DNA of 64,000 bases from a bacterium (GTDB lineage: Bacteria > SAR324 > JACQKK01): positions 1,472,001 through 1,536,000 of the forward strand of contig OZ251219.1 in assembly GCA_965240465.1 (NCBI GenBank), given 5' to 3'. The position numbers are program-made. This document shows, in pieces, positions 15,001 through 30,000 of the stretch; within the stretch, counting starts at the first letter, position 1, and every line of letters starts with the position of its first letter.

Positions 15001-18000
15001 TGCTATGCCAAAGGTATCCTGCAAATCTTCTTGGCGAATGAAATACATCGTCGCTACAATGGCGATGCGGCGACGCCAAAGATTATCTGATTGTGTCCAC
15101 TGGTACAGGAGCTTCCGAGAAGTAGAATACAAATGAGATCCAACAATAGTAGGAGCACTAATATCAACCAAATCCCAGTTATTAACTCGCTCCATCTTTT
15201 CTAAGTATAGATTATGTATAAGTTGGCGTTGCTGCGGGTTACATTTTCGGTATCTCATAACCATGATTATCAAGGCCAGCATGCGTTCTTCGTGAAATTT
15301 TGAATCTAATAATTCAACCAATACAGCTGAGGATGCTTGTTCAAATTTGCACGCACAACGGCGTATGTCGGGCACGACAATGCCCATAAAATGGTCGCCT
15401 TCTCCATATTGACCAGGCCCGGTTTTGAAAAAACGAGGGTAAAATACAGCCTTTTCAGCACAGATAAAATGCTTCATTTGCACGCGGATAGCCATTATAT
15501 CGGCTGTTGTAGCACCCTCTGTAGAAATAGCTTTTGTCACCGGTTTACTCAGCAAGATAGATTGAGAGTTCATATCAAAGTAAGCTCCCCGAGCAAGATT
15601 CGAACTTGCGACCTAGTGGTTAACAGCCACCCGCTCTACCGCTGAGCTATCGGGGAATGTGTTACATAAGATAATGCAACAGGCACTTAAGCATATCGCA
15701 AAACAAATTGATAAAGTCAAATTGTCATCAAACTTAGTACACAATCAAACCACAATAGCAAGGTGATACTTGTTTAGGCATCTTGATGAAAGCACCAGCT
15801 AACATTATGTTGCTATTTAAGGATTATTGCCACTGCTATTATCTTTCCAATGAGCACGCACTGTAAGTACACCCCGGGGTGAATTGACATCCAACGGCTC
15901 GTTGTCCAGACGCAGGTAGCGTGTACTGAGTACGTGAACAGCATCAACATCTCCTTGCTCTATCAGGGATACTAATTCTTGTCCCGTGCTGGATAGAACA
16001 TCTAGTAGCAACACTTTCTCATCTGATTGGACATTAAAAAATGGATGGGGCAAGGCGTTCATGTTCTCATTTTTAATAGCTTGAGTTAATTCTACTTCTT
16101 CCCAGCAATTATCATCACTTAAGACATGGAGGCATGCACGCATTTGATCTGGAGTATTGGCATCAGTAATCTTTGGCTGATTATTTTTCAATCTACGATA
16201 GTAAACAGATCCATTACGAAGGATAGTTTTCTCTGTGTCCAAGCTATTTGCCCATGGCGGATCTTGGGTAGTTGTAGCACTAATTATTTCCCCTTGGCTG
16301 TTTAGACGCAGAAAAATAAACATTGGGATTTCACCATAGCCTAAATCATACGGTGGCGATGATCGCAGATATTTGAATGATACTGCAGCCGGGTTATTAA
16401 TGCTAATTCCTGGAGCATATGTGAGGTGGATAGTAATATGTGCCTGAGTCCGGTTTATTCCATAGCCTCCAAATGATAAATCAGCAAAAGAATTAAATTT
16501 GACTCTTGGCAAAAAATAGTAAGTATTAAATAAAAAAAACCTATTATTTGTATCACTAAAATGGTTAATTGAACTTCCTATATTTATACCTCTCGGTTTT
16601 ATTTTTGGGGCTCCATATTCACCCATAGCTACAGCAGAAAAATTATCGTAGAGTTGATTCATTTTTGATGCAGTTAGTACATCTCCAATGTTGAAATCAA
16701 GATTAGACCATACCATATAATTCTCCAAATTTATGATTAACAAAAAGCTAACGCTTATTAAATATATCAATTAGTATAAAAAATTAATTACACTAATAAA
16801 AATCTTTGATCATCTAGTTGTCCACGTACAGGATGATCTAATTTTAATCCAAGTTGCTCTTGCATTGTATTGAGCAAGCTAATTTTAATGGAACATTTCT
16901 GCATATCAATTTCTTGAGACATAACCCGCCAAGGTATATCTAGATCTACCCCAAAATTTTCTCTTTGCTCCATAGTAATTATTTCTCCCGGTTTGCAAAG
17001 AATGGCAGCCAAAGTACTATCTACAGTTATTTTAGTAGAAGGTTCCTCAAGCGTATACAGAGTACTCCTAGCAGTATAGTTAGCATCGGTATGAGAGATA
17101 TGCCATATATTATTGCTCTTTAGTATCAATTTACGTTCACCAAAACGATTAATTGATTCATCATTTCGTGCTTCAGCTACAGTACTCCAAGTACGATTTT
17201 GAGTAGAATAATCTGCATGTACAAAAATACTATTTTTTACACTCTTAGGAGAAGTTTGTACCTGTATATTTGAAATGTACTTAGAAATAAGAGTGTGGTG
17301 AGTAGTAGGACGGGAAGTTATTTGAGAAAAACTAATCCTGCCATCTTCAATATAAATTGCAGAGCGTGCTATATCTGCTAATTGGCGTAAAGCATATCCC
17401 AATTTTGTATCCTTAAAATATGCTTTCATGCGAATATTATTCTCTCTCCAGATTGTTTCCCAATTGGAAAAAGAATTATAATTTATATCTGGATTATTGT
17501 TATTCTTTAAAGAAGAAAGTCCTCCATAGCTGGTAAGTAATAACCATGCTAATTCTGAGGGTAAGTATCTTGACCCGGTTAGATCAAGAGGTTGTTCATT
17601 TCCTAATAATACTTCTGTTACTTTGCTGATATTATCCTGTGCTTGCAGGAGAATATAGTTTTCCAAGATGGATGCTTGTTCCAAACGCCCTTGGAATAAA
17701 GTGATATATTGATATCCTGTGATTCTGTGTACCCATCCTAAGCGGATTTTACATACAGTAAGTAAAGCCTCATTGCTGGCTAATTTTTCTGCCAGAGCGT
17801 TTTTATAGGCAAGTTTAATGGATATAGTGACTGGACGCAGATTGTTCCATTCACGATTGACACGCGGCCATTGTTGTACTAGATGAGATATGTCTTCATT
17901 ATCAAGTATTAATTGCCTTTTTGGACGTGATAATGACGCCCTCATTTGTTGCCTAAACCATGAAGAAACCGAGTAAGACATAAGCTATTCCGTACATAAA

Positions 18001-27000: not shown

Positions 27001-30000
27001 CATTCCTTGCTCCATACAAAGAGCCAAGAGTTCCACCAATTGCTGCTTGCGAGAGTGAGTGAATACCACTGGATAAGCTTCTGCTCCCATACGGTTCATT
27101 TCTTCACAGATGGGGTCACCACTGCCGCTGGCATCCACATAGAGCGGTGCATAGTTAAAACGACGAGATAATGCCAGCAATCTTTCTAATTGACCCCGCC
27201 ATGGAATTCGATGAAAACGCTCACAGTACACGGTACTACGAGTATCAACACAACCTACCCATGCAACGGTGAAATCACCCCAACGGGCTAGATCTACTCC
27301 CAGTATGTAGGAGTGTCCAACTTTAGGAGCAGCATCCATTTTTACAAGTTGTATATCGTTAAGAGATTGGAAAACCTTCTGATTTTCATTAGCAAATTCA
27401 GCCATAATCTCTTGTTGATAGACTGCCCTAGGCATCTGTTTCTGTAGACCTTCTAGCTCTTTTTTGCTGAGTAATGGATTGATATGAGAAGGATGCCTAA
27501 AACTTGCCCAGTCTTGCTGCTGAGTATCTTGTCCCCAATCAAACATACGCCTGAAAAGACCATCTCCTTTGGGAGCCCCAATGCAAAAAAATCGGGCATG
27601 AGGACTTTCTATAAGCATAGGTAGCAAGGTGTGGTAATAAATGGATTCATCACGCAAAACCAGTCCTGCTTCATTTATCCAGATGTAGTCATAAGCAAAC
27701 CCTTCCAACATTTCAGGGCGTTCTGCCGAACCGAAATCACACCATGAACCGCTTTCAAAATTTAGGACATGGTCGCTTGCATCCCATTTCCACTCTGAAC
27801 CCTTAAGGCAGGGACTAAAATAACGAGCTATCAACTTGTGGATATTTCTATAACTAGTATCTATCCACAAATGACAACTCCGAGGATGTAAGTGTGCCAA
27901 TTCTACCAGTCTTGTTATCGCACCATGAGTACCACCCGCCCGACGCCCTTTTACATAGACTATGTTTCTTGTCGGACAATCAAACACCTCAAGTTGATGA
28001 GGCAAATAAGACAATGTTATGGCTTTTTCTTTTGTGTAATCAGCGTGACAGGGGAGCATTTTAATATGTCTCTTCAATGAATATTCTTAGTTCATCAGCT
28101 CAGTGATAAACACTCCGTAATAATACGAAGGTCATAAAAAGCCCCATTAGTATGCTCAGGCATACAAAGCTTGTCGCTAAATGCAATAATCTACTGAGAG
28201 CTACTCAGTAAGATGTTTTTATTAGTGTGTGTTGGATTATCTTTATGCTAAGGCATTAGAAATACTTTTTCAAGTAAAAAATGTAATTCTACGAAAAAAT
28301 AATTGGGGAATACCAAAAAGACAAAGCCATCCTCCCTTAACCTTGAAAAGGTAGCTTATGTGTTCTGCTTTCATCAGAGGATGAAGGTAAATTGATTACG
28401 GCAGATTAGCCGGTAATTCTTTCTAGTAAGGGAGATATATTTCCCTGCAAGATAAAGGCGATAACCAGTCCGTAAATAACCAGAGATTCAATCAATGCCA
28501 AACCAATGATCATAGGAGTAAAGATGCGACCAGAAGCATTTGGATTGCGTGCAATACCTTCTAGGGCTGCCGAAACAGCCTTGCCTTGTCCCAACGCACC
28601 ACCCAAAGCAGCGATACCTATTGCTAATCCTGATGCCAAGGAAAGTCCTAATACAGAAATCTCGCCGTCTGCAACCGCATAAACTGGAGAAGCTCCCATT
28701 ACGAATAAGGTAGAAAACAGAGTAAGTGATTTTTTATTCATTGCGTCTCTCTAAAAATAAGCCTCTCTAAAAAACAGAATTCGCTCCCTGCTGAGGAGTC
28801 TACAAAATAAACTGATAATAACCAATAAAAAATTTAATGCGGAGCATCTTGTGCATCCTGAATGTATACCGCAGCAAGCAGTACAAATACTACCGCCTGT
28901 AGTACAGATACCAGTACTCCCAAAGCCATGAAGGGTACTGGTAATCCTACTGCCAATAAGGAACTAAAAACAGTCAACACTTGGTGGTCGCCAGTCATGT
29001 TTCCAAACAAACGCATTGAAAGCGACAGAGGCCTTACTAAGTGACTGATGATTTCAATGGGTATCATCAAAGGTGCCAACAATAGCAATGGCCCCATGAA
29101 TTTTTTGCCGTAGCCCCATCCGTGTGTTTTAAGTCCTATTGTGTGTGCAGTAAAAAATATCATTAGTGCTAAGGGAAGGGTGACATTGTACTGGTCTGTA
29201 GGAGCCGCGAAGCCCGGCACCAATCCCAACAGATTGTTGCATAGAATAAACAACATGAATCCTGCCAGTAAAGGAAATACCGAGCGTACTCCTTGATGAA
29301 TAATACCCTGAAAAAAACCAGACATCCTAACCACGATGAATTCTCCTAAGAAAGCAAAATTCACCTTTCCTTGAGGAGCAGTCACCTCTTGCTTACGAAA
29401 ACTTCTACCTACCAAGAAAGCAAAAACCACTAGCACAACCGAAGCTACCAGAGCATCCACTGCTGGATGAGGATCTATGCCATAACGTGCTAGCAAGTGT
29501 TCTAGTGGTTCAAAGAGAAAATTACGCCAAGAAATTTCGTGCATTTTGTATAAGCTTAGATGATTAAATTCATACTTTATGAGTTCATAGCCAGCATCTA
29601 CGTATTTTGGATGGTTTTAGCTGCTAAGGTGAGGCAGGCAGGCAGTATGGTAGAAATTCCAATCAATAGACCTAACGGGGATATCTGAAGCACGCGGAGG
29701 CAACCCGCAATGAATATGATGTTGAATCCCAATTTTAATGGATATACCCACCATGGAAAACGCCTAGACCTTTTAAGTAGCGAACGTACTAATTTTTCTG
29801 TCCATACCAAATTGGTAGTTACCAGTCCCACACCTAGCAGAACGGCTAGTACAAAGTCAAACTGACCTCGTATCAAGGGTAGTCCTATGAATAGTACGCC
29901 CCAGCCGATGGTAATCATCAACAAAGGGGAACGGCTGGGAAGGGTAGATTTTCTAACGTTCATCAAGATCATTTGTCTGCTGTACCTTTTTCAAGGTACG

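What a model noticed while it worked through the whole genome (the two positions that open the first line are those of the whole stretch)
15817..28077. Vertically inherited phage head-tail (GTA-like) gene cluster in a SAR324 family
Fifteen intact, co-oriented genes encode terminase, Mu-type portal, protease, scaffold, capsid, neck, tail tube, frameshifted chaperones, a short tape measure and distal tail proteins. No integration, replication, regulation or lysis gene was recognised, and ATP-synthase and DNA-repair genes lie directly on either side. The cluster is shared, in the same order, by most genera of the family and by none of the sister family, so it is a resident GTA- or PBSX-like element rather than a recent prophage.
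Evidence so far: PHROG or Pfam hits for 8 of 15 ORFs in canonical order. A_AAA_AAG slippery site with an open -1 frame in the chaperone gene. Flanks are atpE/atpB/atpI-like and a DNA_alkylation gene plus tRNA-Asn. Portal in 14 of 18 f1 and 0 of 22 f2 genomes, at 75% id in the same genus and 57-62% in 8 genomes of 7 other genera, against a genome median of 65.6%. TerL-portal-protease order in 5 of 5 loci. Tape measure plus distal gene adjacent in 9 of 9 loci, and on the portal's contig 8.7-13 kb away in 6 genomes. Best cultured-phage portal identity 24-26%; no IMG/VR relative.
(Added by a program. Inside this text positions count along the whole contig: contig position 1,472,001 is position 1 of the stretch shown here. 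"Call 12" and the like, gene names such as g00115 and contig names such as C1 are that model's own, and its searches are not shown. The text may have been shortened before it was handed on; [...] marks where a part breaks off. The agent that wrote the report below was given it as the finding of a first reader that could run no searches.)

Follow-up and report, generated by a model that had tools for sequence, protein, structure and literature searches.

The report
Domesticated phage head-tail cluster, GTA-like
A complete set of phage head and tail genes without any replication or integration genes has been kept intact at one chromosomal spot across a whole bacterial family, even in two shrunken genomes, which suggests the cells use it to make virus-like particles.

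Summary
Window 28077-15817 (minus strand) carries 15 intact, tightly packed genes: TerL, Mu-type portal, protease-scaffold, small head protein, capsid, three neck genes, tail tube, frameshifted chaperones, 340-aa tape measure, a tail hub and two further distal genes.

Evidence for long residence:
- atpE flanks the TerL end in 6 of 9 related loci.
- argF flanks the tail end in 4 of 5 genomes where that DNA was available.
- No integrase, att repeat or tRNA target is conserved.
- Third-position GC tracks the host's from 0.37 to 0.94 (r=0.99, n=10).
- All 15 genes are constrained (pN 0.15-0.29 against saturated pS 0.64-0.81).
- The cluster tree largely matches rpoB, with one conflict.
- The portal is in 14/18 family genomes and 0/45 of the sister family.

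New here: the element is dispersed in this 1.6-Mb genome.
- An M15 endolysin, a GTA_holin_3TM holin and a small membrane protein lie about 885 kb away.
- A cluster-linked glycosyltransferase fusion lies about 195 kb away, beside the only LexA-like repressor gene.
- A weak homolog of the gene found upstream of TerL in other genera lies about 158 kb away.

The best reading is an anciently domesticated GTA- or PBSX-like particle system. Particle production, DNA content and expression remain untested.

The parts
26782..28077 (-). Large terminase (431 aa)
   Evidence: phrog_2 2.1e-31. 97 of 431 positions are invariant across 10 genomes, including KGRRxGGT, W[ILV]NEAG, GVDLAR, DA[ST]GxGD and HDDCVxALAL.
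25350..26801 (-). Portal, Mu type (483 aa), without the Mu-F-like C-terminal domain seen in related prophage-like elements
   Evidence: PF06074 6.8e-56 and phrog_113 5.7e-65. Relatives G001:C1 and IMG/VR L100 carry portal-MuF fusions of 795 and 793 aa.
24104..25261 (-). Head maturation protease with scaffold-like C-terminal half (385 aa)
   Evidence: phrog_976 1.3e-37 over residues 7-380.
23711..24088 (-). Small head protein (125 aa), scaffold or decoration
   Evidence: phrog_673 9.2e-11. 52-60% identical in other genera.
22694..23647 (-). Major capsid protein (317 aa)
   Evidence: phrog_1005 7.2e-59 and PF03864. 62-67% identical across genera.
22163..22624 (-). Head-tail connector candidate (153 aa), no family hit
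   Evidence: Assigned by position. Conserved at 43-48% identity in 8 other-genus loci.
21679..22176 (-). Neck / tail completion protein (165 aa)
   Evidence: phrog_26 1.4e-10. PF05069 scores 24.0 bits, just under its cut-off of 24.3.
21173..21637 (-). Neck or tail terminator candidate (154 aa), no family hit
   Evidence: Assigned by position. 42-47% identical in 7 other-genus loci.
20105..21082 (-). Tail tube protein (325 aa)
   Evidence: PF18906 1.3e-20 and phrog_290 2.8e-28.
19497..20095 (-). Tail assembly chaperone pair (131 aa, plus a -1 frame extension) with slippery A_AAA_AAG at 19748-19742
   Evidence: Read directly from the sequence. G005 has the same heptamer, register and open -1 frame, giving a 201-aa fusion.
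18424..19446 (-). Tape measure protein, short (340 aa)
   Evidence: phrog_13674 2.2e-16 plus 5 other tape-measure PHROGs.
18018..18398 (-). Distal tail protein candidate (126 aa), no family hit
   Evidence: Assigned by position. 65% identical in G005. Weak homologs (25%) lie after the hub gene in G015 and G001.
16788..17981 (-). Tail hub (Tal / gp27-like), 397 aa; homologs in other genera are 693-708 aa
   Evidence: The AF2 model has low confidence (pLDDT 52.5). Even so, 56 Foldseek PDB hits at E<=1e-3 are nearly all tail hub or VgrG proteins, including Mu gp44, MuSo2 and the JBD30 baseplate. It directly follows the tape measure in 5 of 5 other-genus loci that reach that far.
15817..16770 (-). 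Last tail gene (317 aa), probable fibre or receptor-binding protein; found only in this genus
   Evidence: 51% identical in G005 only. pN 0.29 against pS 0.74. The protein-atlas search gives only weak leads to viral hypothetical and RBP-like clusters (score 0.86).
28245..28273 (-). Promoter-like site TTGAAA-17-TAGCAT in the atpE-TerL spacer, followed by ACACACAC and the palindrome ACTGAG-TAGCT-CTCAGT
   Evidence: It scores 9/12 in the scan, which is not above chance on its own. However, it lies in a ~90-nt block conserved with G005, which reads TTGAAA-17-TAGTAT, while synonymous sites are saturated. Its function is inferred.
28406..29544 (-). Host flank: atpE and atpB
   Evidence: PF00137 and PF00119. 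Adjacent to TerL in G005, G001, G003, G004, G008 and G013.
15584..15656 (-). Host flank: tRNA-Asn, with its 5' end facing the cluster; not an attachment site
   Evidence: No direct repeat was found. In G005 the tRNA lies about 20 kb away inside an inverted block.

Best explanation
This is an anciently domesticated tailed-phage morphogenesis system. It has a Mu-type head module and a siphovirus-type tail. It entered the chromosome between atpIBE and argF before the family diversified and has been inherited vertically since.

It encodes everything needed to build a DNA-filled, non-contractile-tailed particle, and nothing needed to replicate, integrate or maintain lysogeny. The parts are terminase, portal, protease-scaffold, capsid, neck, tube, frameshifted chaperones, tape measure, hub and fibre.

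In this reduced 1.6-Mb genome its accessory genes have been scattered:
- A lysis cassette (M15 endolysin, GTA_holin_3TM holin, small membrane protein) lies at C1:611.7-612.7 kb.
- A glycosyltransferase fusion sits inside the cluster in three other genomes (three genera). Here it lies at C1:1291.0-1293.4 kb, beside the only LexA-like HTH-S24 repressor gene.
- A weak homolog of the putative small terminase lies at C1:1328.7-1329.7 kb.

The most likely working mode resembles a gene transfer agent or PBSX. A subpopulation would express the operon from its own promoter in the atpE-TerL spacer and fill heads with host DNA. Packaging would have little or no sequence specificity. A short tail would be added, about 50 nm if 0.15 nm per tape-measure residue holds (a recalled rule). 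Particles would be released through the remote holin-endolysin pair.

Shown: gene content, intactness, position, selection, distribution and dispersal. Inferred: expression, particle assembly, the DNA packaged, and the benefit to the host.
For: Gene set and order.

No mobility or lysogeny functions:
- Host genes lie 330 nt and 160 nt from the cluster ends.
- No att repeat was found.
- G000 has only two tyrosine recombinases, and neither is adjacent. One is XerC/D-like beside ribD; the other is divergent, beside lon, about 41 kb away.
- No PF00589 hit lies on the cluster contigs of G001, G003, G004 or G008. In G011 the nearest is more than 90 kb away.
- In G001 the whole element fits between atpE and argF.

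Same site in many genera:
- atpE is next to TerL in 6 of 9 orthologous loci. G011 differs, and G015 and G018 reach a contig end.
- argF (NF011379 2e-102) sits at the tail end in G005, G001, G004 and G011 at 60-61% identity.
- Both flanks lie on one contig in G005, G001 and G004.

Long residence: head-gene GC3 runs from 0.37 to 0.94 and tracks rpoB GC3 (r=0.99, n=10).

Selection:
- G000 against G005 gives pN 0.15-0.29 against pS 0.64-0.81 for 15 of 15 genes.
- Within genus g4, cluster dS is 0.30-0.62 and dN/dS 0.17-0.36. For atpE and atpB, dS is 0.35-0.62 and dN/dS 0.16-0.38.
- The slippery heptamer and its register are kept in G005.
- TerL motifs are invariant in 10 genomes.

Phylogeny: the cluster occurs in both basal clades of the outgroup-rooted rpoB tree. 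The cluster tree recovers (G000,G005) and (G001,(G003,G004)).

Distribution: f1 14/18, f2 0/45. The best portal outside the family is 30% identical.

Dispersed parts:
- Endolysin: phrog_894 1.9e-42 and PF08291.
- Holin: PF11351 at 31.5 bits against a cut-off of 24.8, and phrog_3427 7e-33.
- The cassette lies between prfB and parA and is syntenic in G005.
- The M15 endolysin sits directly upstream of TerL in G008, G011, G012 and G015.
- The GT fusion is in f1 11/18 and f2 0/45, and in 0 of the 4 portal-less f1 genomes.

Retention through genome reduction: G000 and G005 are 1.6-1.7 Mb against 2.3-5.2 Mb for relatives. G000 has even lost the neighbouring argF.
Against: - There is no evidence of transcription, particles or packaged DNA.
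- Seven of 15 ORFs have no family hit. One of these, the hub, gets a fold match on a low-confidence model.
- The small-terminase assignment rests on position and a helix-rich model only. There is no Pfam, PHROG, PDB-sequence or Foldseek support. Its remote homolog in G000 is weak (hhalign 81%, E 1.2e-5) and poorly constrained (pN 0.42).
- The remote endolysin is only 35-37% identical to the cluster-linked ones. It could therefore stem from a different phage.
- The cluster tree conflicts with rpoB for G008 and G011 (AU p=0.03; the group was named after seeing the tree). G011's cluster is not beside atpE. Some movement or recombination is therefore likely.
- Related, more complete prophage-like elements exist in the same family: G001:C1 and G017.
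- G002, G006 and G007 lack a close portal relative. G014's contig breaks 236 nt after atpE.
- Head size is unknown, so it cannot be said that a particle holds too little DNA to carry the element's own genes.
- All genomes are MAGs, kin are not independent, and rpoB is a single marker.
Confidence: 0.6

Rival explanations
1. PBSX-like killer particle or phage-derived bacteriocin. The particles are made and released by lysis, but their selected function is to kill or inhibit related strains. DNA packaging would be incidental.
For: The same gene content and dispersal fit this reading: structural genes plus a lysis cassette, with no replication module. The last tail gene is genus-specific, as expected for a specificity determinant. 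The GT gene lies beside the sole LexA-like HTH-S24 repressor gene in 7 genomes. This invites SOS-type induction, as I recall for PBSX.
Against: Nothing in the sequence separates this reading from a GTA. TerL, the portal and the nuclease motifs are strongly conserved, so DNA packaging itself is under selection. No shared operator was found upstream of the four loci.
Confidence: 0.2
2. Repeated, independent integration of one temperate-phage lineage at a preferred site downstream of atpE, followed by decay of its other modules. This would not be single ancient domestication.
For: Related, more complete elements occur in the family. G001:C1 carries a repressor, a superinfection-immunity gene and a different TerL, and G017 carries a related element. 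G011's copy lies elsewhere, and the G008/G011 placement conflicts with rpoB. IMG/VR holds relatives with 34-39% portal identity.
Against: There is no integrase, att repeat or tRNA target at any copy. The same two flanks occur in three genera. Cluster divergence parallels that of the flanking genes: dS 0.30-0.62 against 0.35-0.62. GC3 is fully ameliorated. The same truncated module set is present in every copy.
Confidence: 0.07
3. A helper or co-opted structure. The cluster would be kept because another element (a satellite or plasmid) or another cellular process uses its capsids or tails. Autonomous particle release with host DNA would not be the point.
For: Purifying selection on all 15 genes does not say what the particles carry.
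Against: No satellite-like element was sought or seen. The co-retained lysis cassette and TerL point to DNA-filled, released particles.
Confidence: 0.06
4. An inert remnant that has not yet decayed.
For: No expression data exist. Cluster GC is 4 points under the genome mean, mostly owing to the last two tail genes at 35.5-37.5%.
Against: All 15 ORFs are intact in two genomes whose synonymous sites are saturated (pS 0.64-0.81). pN is 0.15-0.29, and the slippery site is conserved. The cluster was retained through a two- to three-fold genome reduction.
Confidence: 0.03

Closest known systems
RcGTA-type gene transfer agents of Alphaproteobacteria (Rhodogtaviriformidae)
   Same: Shared features: a head-tail gene cluster without replication or integration genes; vertical inheritance across a whole clade; purifying selection; and genes spread over several loci, including a remote endolysin-holin pair. 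The holin here belongs to the same Pfam family, PF11351 GTA_holin_3TM. The general GTA properties were taken from PMC9953437, where I read passages of section 3.
   Different: The origin is independent. The head here is Mu-type (PF06074 portal, phrog_976 protease, phrog_1005 capsid). Apart from the holin, no RcGTA-family hit was obtained; my memory of which Pfam families RcGTA uses was not tested. No regulator comparable to GafA/CtrA is known here. Head size and the packaged DNA are unknown. The host is a SAR324-labelled lineage.
PBSX-like defective prophages of Bacillus (recalled, not tested)
   Same: Both are chromosomally fixed, non-replicating phage-like elements that make tailed particles with host DNA and are released by lysis. 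Here there is a possible link to an SOS-type repressor: the HTH-S24 gene lies beside a dispersed element gene.
   Different: As I recall, PBSX has a contractile tail and keeps its regulator and lysis genes inside the element. Here the tail is non-contractile (tube PF18906, tape measure, no sheath) and the accessory genes are dispersed.
Mu-like siphoviruses (B3/D3112/JBD30-type) and roseophage RDJL Phi 1
   Same: These are the nearest cultured relatives of the capsid, at 27-28% identity. They share the Mu-type portal, protease and neck genes. The hub model matches Mu gp44 and the JBD30 baseplate.
   Different: Those are complete viruses with transposase or replication, regulation and lysis modules. 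The portal here lacks the fused Mu-F-like domain that related elements in G001:C1 and IMG/VR L100 carry.
Prophage-like relatives in the same family (G001:C1, G017:C31) and IMG/VR contigs L098-L102
   Same: They share the portal-protease-small head protein-capsid order, and have a GT-MT-GT gene in the same slot after the capsid gene.
   Different: Portal identity is only 34-43%. They have a different TerL family (phrog_38). G001:C1 carries repressor, immunity and DNA-binding genes upstream. They are not located at the atpE-argF site.

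Membership tests
Gene transfer agent (viriform sense, PMC9953437) | Tailed-phage-like structural genes in the host chromosome, without the means to replicate or integrate | tested here: met
   Host genes abut both ends.
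Gene transfer agent (viriform sense, PMC9953437) | Vertical inheritance with the host lineage | tested here: met
   Conserved flanks; GC3 tracking; dS equal to that of the flanks; presence in both basal clades. One conflict concerns G008/G011.
Gene transfer agent (viriform sense, PMC9953437) | [quoted passage not shown] | tested here: met
   The lysis cassette lies about 885 kb away. The GT fusion lies about 195 kb away. The TerS-like gene lies about 158 kb away but is weakly supported.
Gene transfer agent (viriform sense, PMC9953437) | Particles package mostly random host DNA and are not infectious | not testable with these tools
   This needs particle DNA sequencing.
Gene transfer agent (viriform sense, PMC9953437) | Particles smaller than typical phage heads, so they cannot carry their own gene set | not testable with these tools
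   The triangulation number cannot be read from the sequence.
Gene transfer agent (viriform sense, PMC9953437) | Production under host control, induced by stress, with release by lysis of a subpopulation | not testable with these tools
   Only leads exist: a conserved promoter-like block and the GT gene beside the sole HTH-S24 repressor.
RcGTA homologs (Rhodogtaviriformidae) | Homology of head-tail genes to the RcGTA cluster | not tested
   No RcGTA sequence was compared. Only the holin family PF11351 is shared. The head families found are Mu-type.
Intact temperate prophage | Integrase or transposase, att sites, repressor and replication module within the element | tested here: not met
   Transposase families were not searched genome-wide.
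Tailocin (phage tail-like bacteriocin) | Tail genes only, with no terminase, portal or capsid | tested here: not met
   TerL, portal, protease and capsid are present and constrained.
Mu-like head module | Mu-type portal, gpI-like protease-scaffold, gpG-like morphogenesis protein, Mu-F-like minor head protein | tested here: inconclusive
   Portal PF06074 and protease phrog_976 are met. PF05069 scores 24.0 bits against a cut-off of 24.3. No Mu-F domain is found in the cluster, although it is fused to the portal in relatives.
Tail assembly chaperone G/GT programmed frameshift | Slippery heptamer near the end of the gene between tube and tape measure, with an overlapping -1 ORF | tested here: met
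   The feature is conserved in G005. Actual frameshifting is not testable here.

The most novel reading that the evidence does not exclude
This would be an independently evolved gene transfer agent of Mu-like ancestry, as old as an entire SAR324-labelled family.

Its genes are being taken apart and rewired into the host chromosome. In the deeper-branching genomes, the endolysin, the putative small terminase and a capsid- or tail-glycosylating enzyme still sit inside the cluster. In the derived lineages the glycosyltransferase has moved beside the cell's only LexA-like repressor. In the genome-reduced genus, the lysis cassette and the terminase-small-subunit homolog have moved too.

The family would then display successive stages of phage-to-GTA domestication, ending in an SOS-wired, multi-locus system. 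A 1.6-Mb genome still pays to keep that system.
Probability: 0.35. Interest if true: 0.85.

Novelty: new member of a known kind. Interest (0 to 1): 0.68.

Why it matters
By the viriform review I read (PMC9953437) and my own recollection, only a handful of independently evolved GTAs are known, and most knowledge comes from one alphaproteobacterial type.

A further, unrelated origin in a lineage labelled SAR324 would give a natural series of domestication stages within one family. In some genera the accessory genes are in the cluster; in others they are dispersed.

The element was also kept through a two- to three-fold genome reduction. That argues it earns its keep. It also offers a small, closed genome in which to ask what such particles carry.

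My literature searches for SAR324 together with 'gene transfer agent' or 'prophage' found no report of this element.

Tried and rejected
- RNA evidence: no RNA holder was listed. Only two DNA runs of one study hold the stretch.
- att sites: the direct-repeat search across 14.5-29 kb gave only chance-level short matches.
- Empty site: no locus with both flanks but no cluster was found in G002, G007, G038 or G034. atpE is followed there by unrelated genes, and argF is not within the fetched 5.5-20 kb.
- Small terminase: Pfam, PHROG, PDB-sequence and Foldseek searches found nothing for the conserved gene upstream of TerL. A search of 5.8 billion proteins returned only 7 unnamed relatives.
- Shared operator: no common palindrome or motif was found in the upstream regions of TerL, the lysis cassette, the TerS-like gene and the S24/GT pair in G000 and G005.
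- NCBIfam: no hit for any cluster gene.
- g16 dN/dS: the first estimate (pN 0.70) was an alignment artefact. It was redone on the full ORFs as pN 0.29.
- ComEC and DprA are present, but they are too common (10 to 11 of 14 control genomes) to count as evidence.
- Tailocin and recent-prophage readings were considered and rejected; see the membership tests.
- Supplementary files of papers were not consulted.

Full report
**What is there**

On the minus strand from 28077 to 15817 lie 15 ORFs with small gaps or overlaps. In order they are:
- large terminase;
- Mu-type portal;
- protease with a scaffold-like tail;
- a 125-aa head protein;
- major capsid protein;
- three neck or connector genes;
- tail tube;
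- a chaperone gene with an overlapping -1 ORF;
- a 340-aa tape measure;
- three distal genes.

Eight of the 15 have PHROG or Pfam hits.

For the 397-aa distal gene I built an AlphaFold model. Its confidence is low (pLDDT 52.5). Nevertheless 56 PDB matches at E<=1e-3 are almost all tail hub, gp27 or VgrG proteins, including Mu gp44, MuSo2 and the JBD30 baseplate. I read this gene as the tail hub.

The last gene is found only in this genus and gives only weak receptor-binding-like leads.

The slippery A_AAA_AAG lies in the correct register near the end of the chaperone gene, and the -1 frame is open for 82 more codons. The sister genome G005 has the same heptamer, register and open frame. Synonymous sites between the two genomes are saturated.

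**What is not there**

- Host genes abut both ends: atpE 330 nt from TerL, and tRNA-Asn 160 nt from the last tail gene.
- There is no direct repeat that could be an att site.
- The tRNA's 5' end faces the cluster. In G005 the same tRNA lies about 20 kb away in an inverted block. The tRNA adjacency is therefore accidental.
- The genome has only two tyrosine recombinases. One is XerC/D-like, beside ribD. The other is divergent, beside lon, about 41 kb from the cluster.
- In five relatives, four cluster contigs carry no integrase; in G011 the nearest is more than 90 kb from the cluster.

**Vertical inheritance**

By tblastn, the nine orthologous loci in other genomes all keep the order TerL, portal, protease, small head protein, capsid (9 of 9).

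TerL is next to atpE-atpB(-hemL) in G005, G001, G003, G004, G008 and G013. In G011 it is not. In G015 and G018 the contig ends first.

At the other end, an ornithine carbamoyltransferase gene follows the tail genes in G005, G001, G004 and G011 at 60-61% identity. G000 has lost that gene, and its distal flank is rearranged. Both flanks are on one contig in three genera.

Third-position GC of the head genes runs from 0.37 to 0.94 across ten genomes and follows rpoB (r=0.99).

Selection results:

| Comparison | Cluster genes | atpE / atpB |
|---|---|---|
| G000 vs G005 | pN 0.15-0.29, pS 0.64-0.81, all 15 genes | not used for comparison |
| Within genus g4, dS | 0.30-0.62 | 0.35-0.62 |
| Within genus g4, dN/dS | 0.17-0.36 | 0.16-0.38 |

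An rpoB tree rooted with four sister-family genomes splits the family into two clades, and both carry the cluster.

A tree of eight concatenated cluster proteins recovers (G000,G005) and (G001,(G003,G004)). It places G008 with G015 rather than with G011. Forcing G008 and G011 together costs 43.7 log-likelihood units (AU p=0.03, but the group was chosen after seeing the tree). I take this as mostly vertical descent with at least one episode of movement or recombination.

The portal is in 14 of 18 other family genomes at E<=1e-20 and in 0 of 45 genomes of the only sister family. Of the four genomes without it:
- G002 (92% complete) and G007 have other genes after atpE;
- G014's contig ends 236 nt after atpE;
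- G006 was not examined.

G002 is the sister genus of this one by rpoB, so it appears to have lost the cluster.

**Relatives outside the family**

Across one genome per species, the best portal outside the family is 30% identical. Record titles there give the SAR324 or Deltaproteobacteria labels.

IMG/VR holds five loci at 34-39%, so 'no IMG/VR relative' is too strong.

The best cultured-phage capsid matches are 27-28%: roseophage RDJL Phi 1 and Mu-like Pseudomonas siphoviruses.

Within the family, G001:C1 and G017:C31 hold related but distinct elements:
- Portal identity to G000 is 38-43% in both.
- G001:C1 has a different TerL family and a portal fused to a Mu-F-like domain.
- G001:C1 also carries repressor, immunity and DNA-binding genes.

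More complete phage-like relatives therefore exist in the family's genomes, and the conserved cluster is a stripped version of them.

**Dispersed parts (new)**

1. Lysis cassette.
   - G000 has a three-gene cassette at C1:611701-612722.
   - The genes are an M15 endolysin (phrog_894 1.9e-42), a holin of Pfam GTA_holin_3TM (31.5 bits against a cut-off of 24.8; phrog_3427 7e-33) and a 98-aa membrane protein.
   - It lies between prfB and parA, near dnaA, and is syntenic in G005.
   - In G008, G011, G012 and G015 an M15 endolysin sits directly upstream of TerL.
   - Those endolysins are only 35-37% identical to G000's, so common origin is likely but not shown.

2. Putative small terminase.
   - A conserved gene with a core of about 100 aa lies immediately upstream of TerL in nine genomes.
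   - It has no family or fold match. Its model is two short helices plus one 47-residue helix.
   - I call it a putative small terminase by position only.
   - G000 and G005 lack it at TerL. They have a weak homolog beside scpA (hhalign 81%, E 1.2e-5).

3. Glycosyltransferase fusion.
   - A GT4-methyltransferase-GT2 fusion lies between the capsid and neck genes in G008, G011 and G015, and in the prophage-like G001:C1 and G017.
   - In G000 it lies at C1:1291001-1293448 without the methyltransferase part.
   - Its distribution equals the portal's: f1 11/18, f2 0/45, and none of the four portal-less family genomes.
   - Where it is outside the cluster, in seven genomes, it lies beside an HTH-Peptidase_S24 repressor gene.
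   - That repressor is the only S24 gene in G000. It also occurs in G002 and in 16 of 45 sister-family genomes. It is therefore a host LexA-like gene, not part of the element.
   - I found no shared operator.

**How it most likely works**

Shown: a complete, constrained morphogenesis gene set with conserved TerL ATPase and nuclease motifs; a conserved programmed-frameshift site; its own conserved promoter-like block in the atpE-TerL spacer; and a co-retained holin-endolysin pair.

Inferred:
- A fraction of cells expresses the operon.
- TerL fills Mu-type heads by a headful-like mechanism, with little sequence preference.
- A short non-contractile tail is attached.
- Glycosyltransferases may decorate virion proteins.
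- The remote cassette lyses the cell.

Whether the particles serve gene transfer (GTA) or killing (PBSX-like) cannot be told from sequence.

**Comparison and novelty**

The element meets the testable GTA criteria as stated in PMC9953437 (passages read): no autonomy, vertical inheritance, multiple loci. It is untestable for the rest: random DNA, small heads, host-controlled induction.

It is not a tailocin, because head genes are present. It is not an intact prophage.

Its ancestry is Mu-like, unlike the known GTA families as far as I recall. Only the holin family is shared with RcGTA.

My searches of the paper library for SAR324 with 'gene transfer agent' or 'prophage' found nothing on this element.

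**Limits**

- All genomes are MAGs.
- My ORF calling in the high-GC relatives was crude.
- The species tree is a single gene.
- Counts across kin are not independent.
- No RNA run holds the stretch.

Noticed in passing
G002 (contigs C2-C5), seen: The sister genus that lacks the cluster shows 17 weak portal-like matches (25-28% identity). Many are near-identical in score and spread over four contigs. This looks like a multi-copy element carrying a portal-like gene.
   Followed up: no
L104:2400-2570 (G000 C1, about 1328.4 kb), upstream of the TerS-like gene: About ten tandem copies of a 16-nt unit (GCATTAGAACATGCAA) sit in the upstream region. The protein itself carries a long Pro/Ala/Ser/Thr-rich insert that is absent from G005.
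   Followed up: no
window 4276-15573: This block, which includes the tmRNA at 3817-4194, a 1538-aa ORF, tlyA-like and DNA_alkylation genes, is inverted relative to the cluster in G005. G000 has also lost the argF ortholog that flanks the cluster elsewhere.
   Followed up: partly
L113:8060-8851 (G000 C1:1294060-1294848): The only Peptidase_S24 (LexA/CI-like) gene of this genome has an XRE-type HTH. It is transcribed divergently from the glycosyltransferase fusion, with a conserved 120-aa ORF between them.
   Followed up: partly
L022:18512-19453 and 19525-19597 (G011): In the one genome whose cluster is not beside atpE, an Mrr-type restriction endonuclease and a tRNA-Gly lie just upstream of the endolysin. 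A GTA_holin_3TM gene (C4:443798) and an S24 gene (C4:445472) lie 1.4 kb apart, about 41 kb from the cluster.
   Followed up: no
window 28192-28210: A perfect palindrome (ACTGAG-TAGCT-CTCAGT) lies just downstream of the conserved promoter-like site. G005 has a partly compensated version. It could be an operator or a 5'-UTR hairpin.
   Followed up: partly
G000 and G005 whole genomes: Both are single contigs of 1.6-1.7 Mb at 45-47% GC. Every other family member is 2.3-5.2 Mb, and the loci I fetched from them have 55-70% GC. They also sit on long rpoB branches. This marks a genome-reduced lineage.
   Followed up: partly
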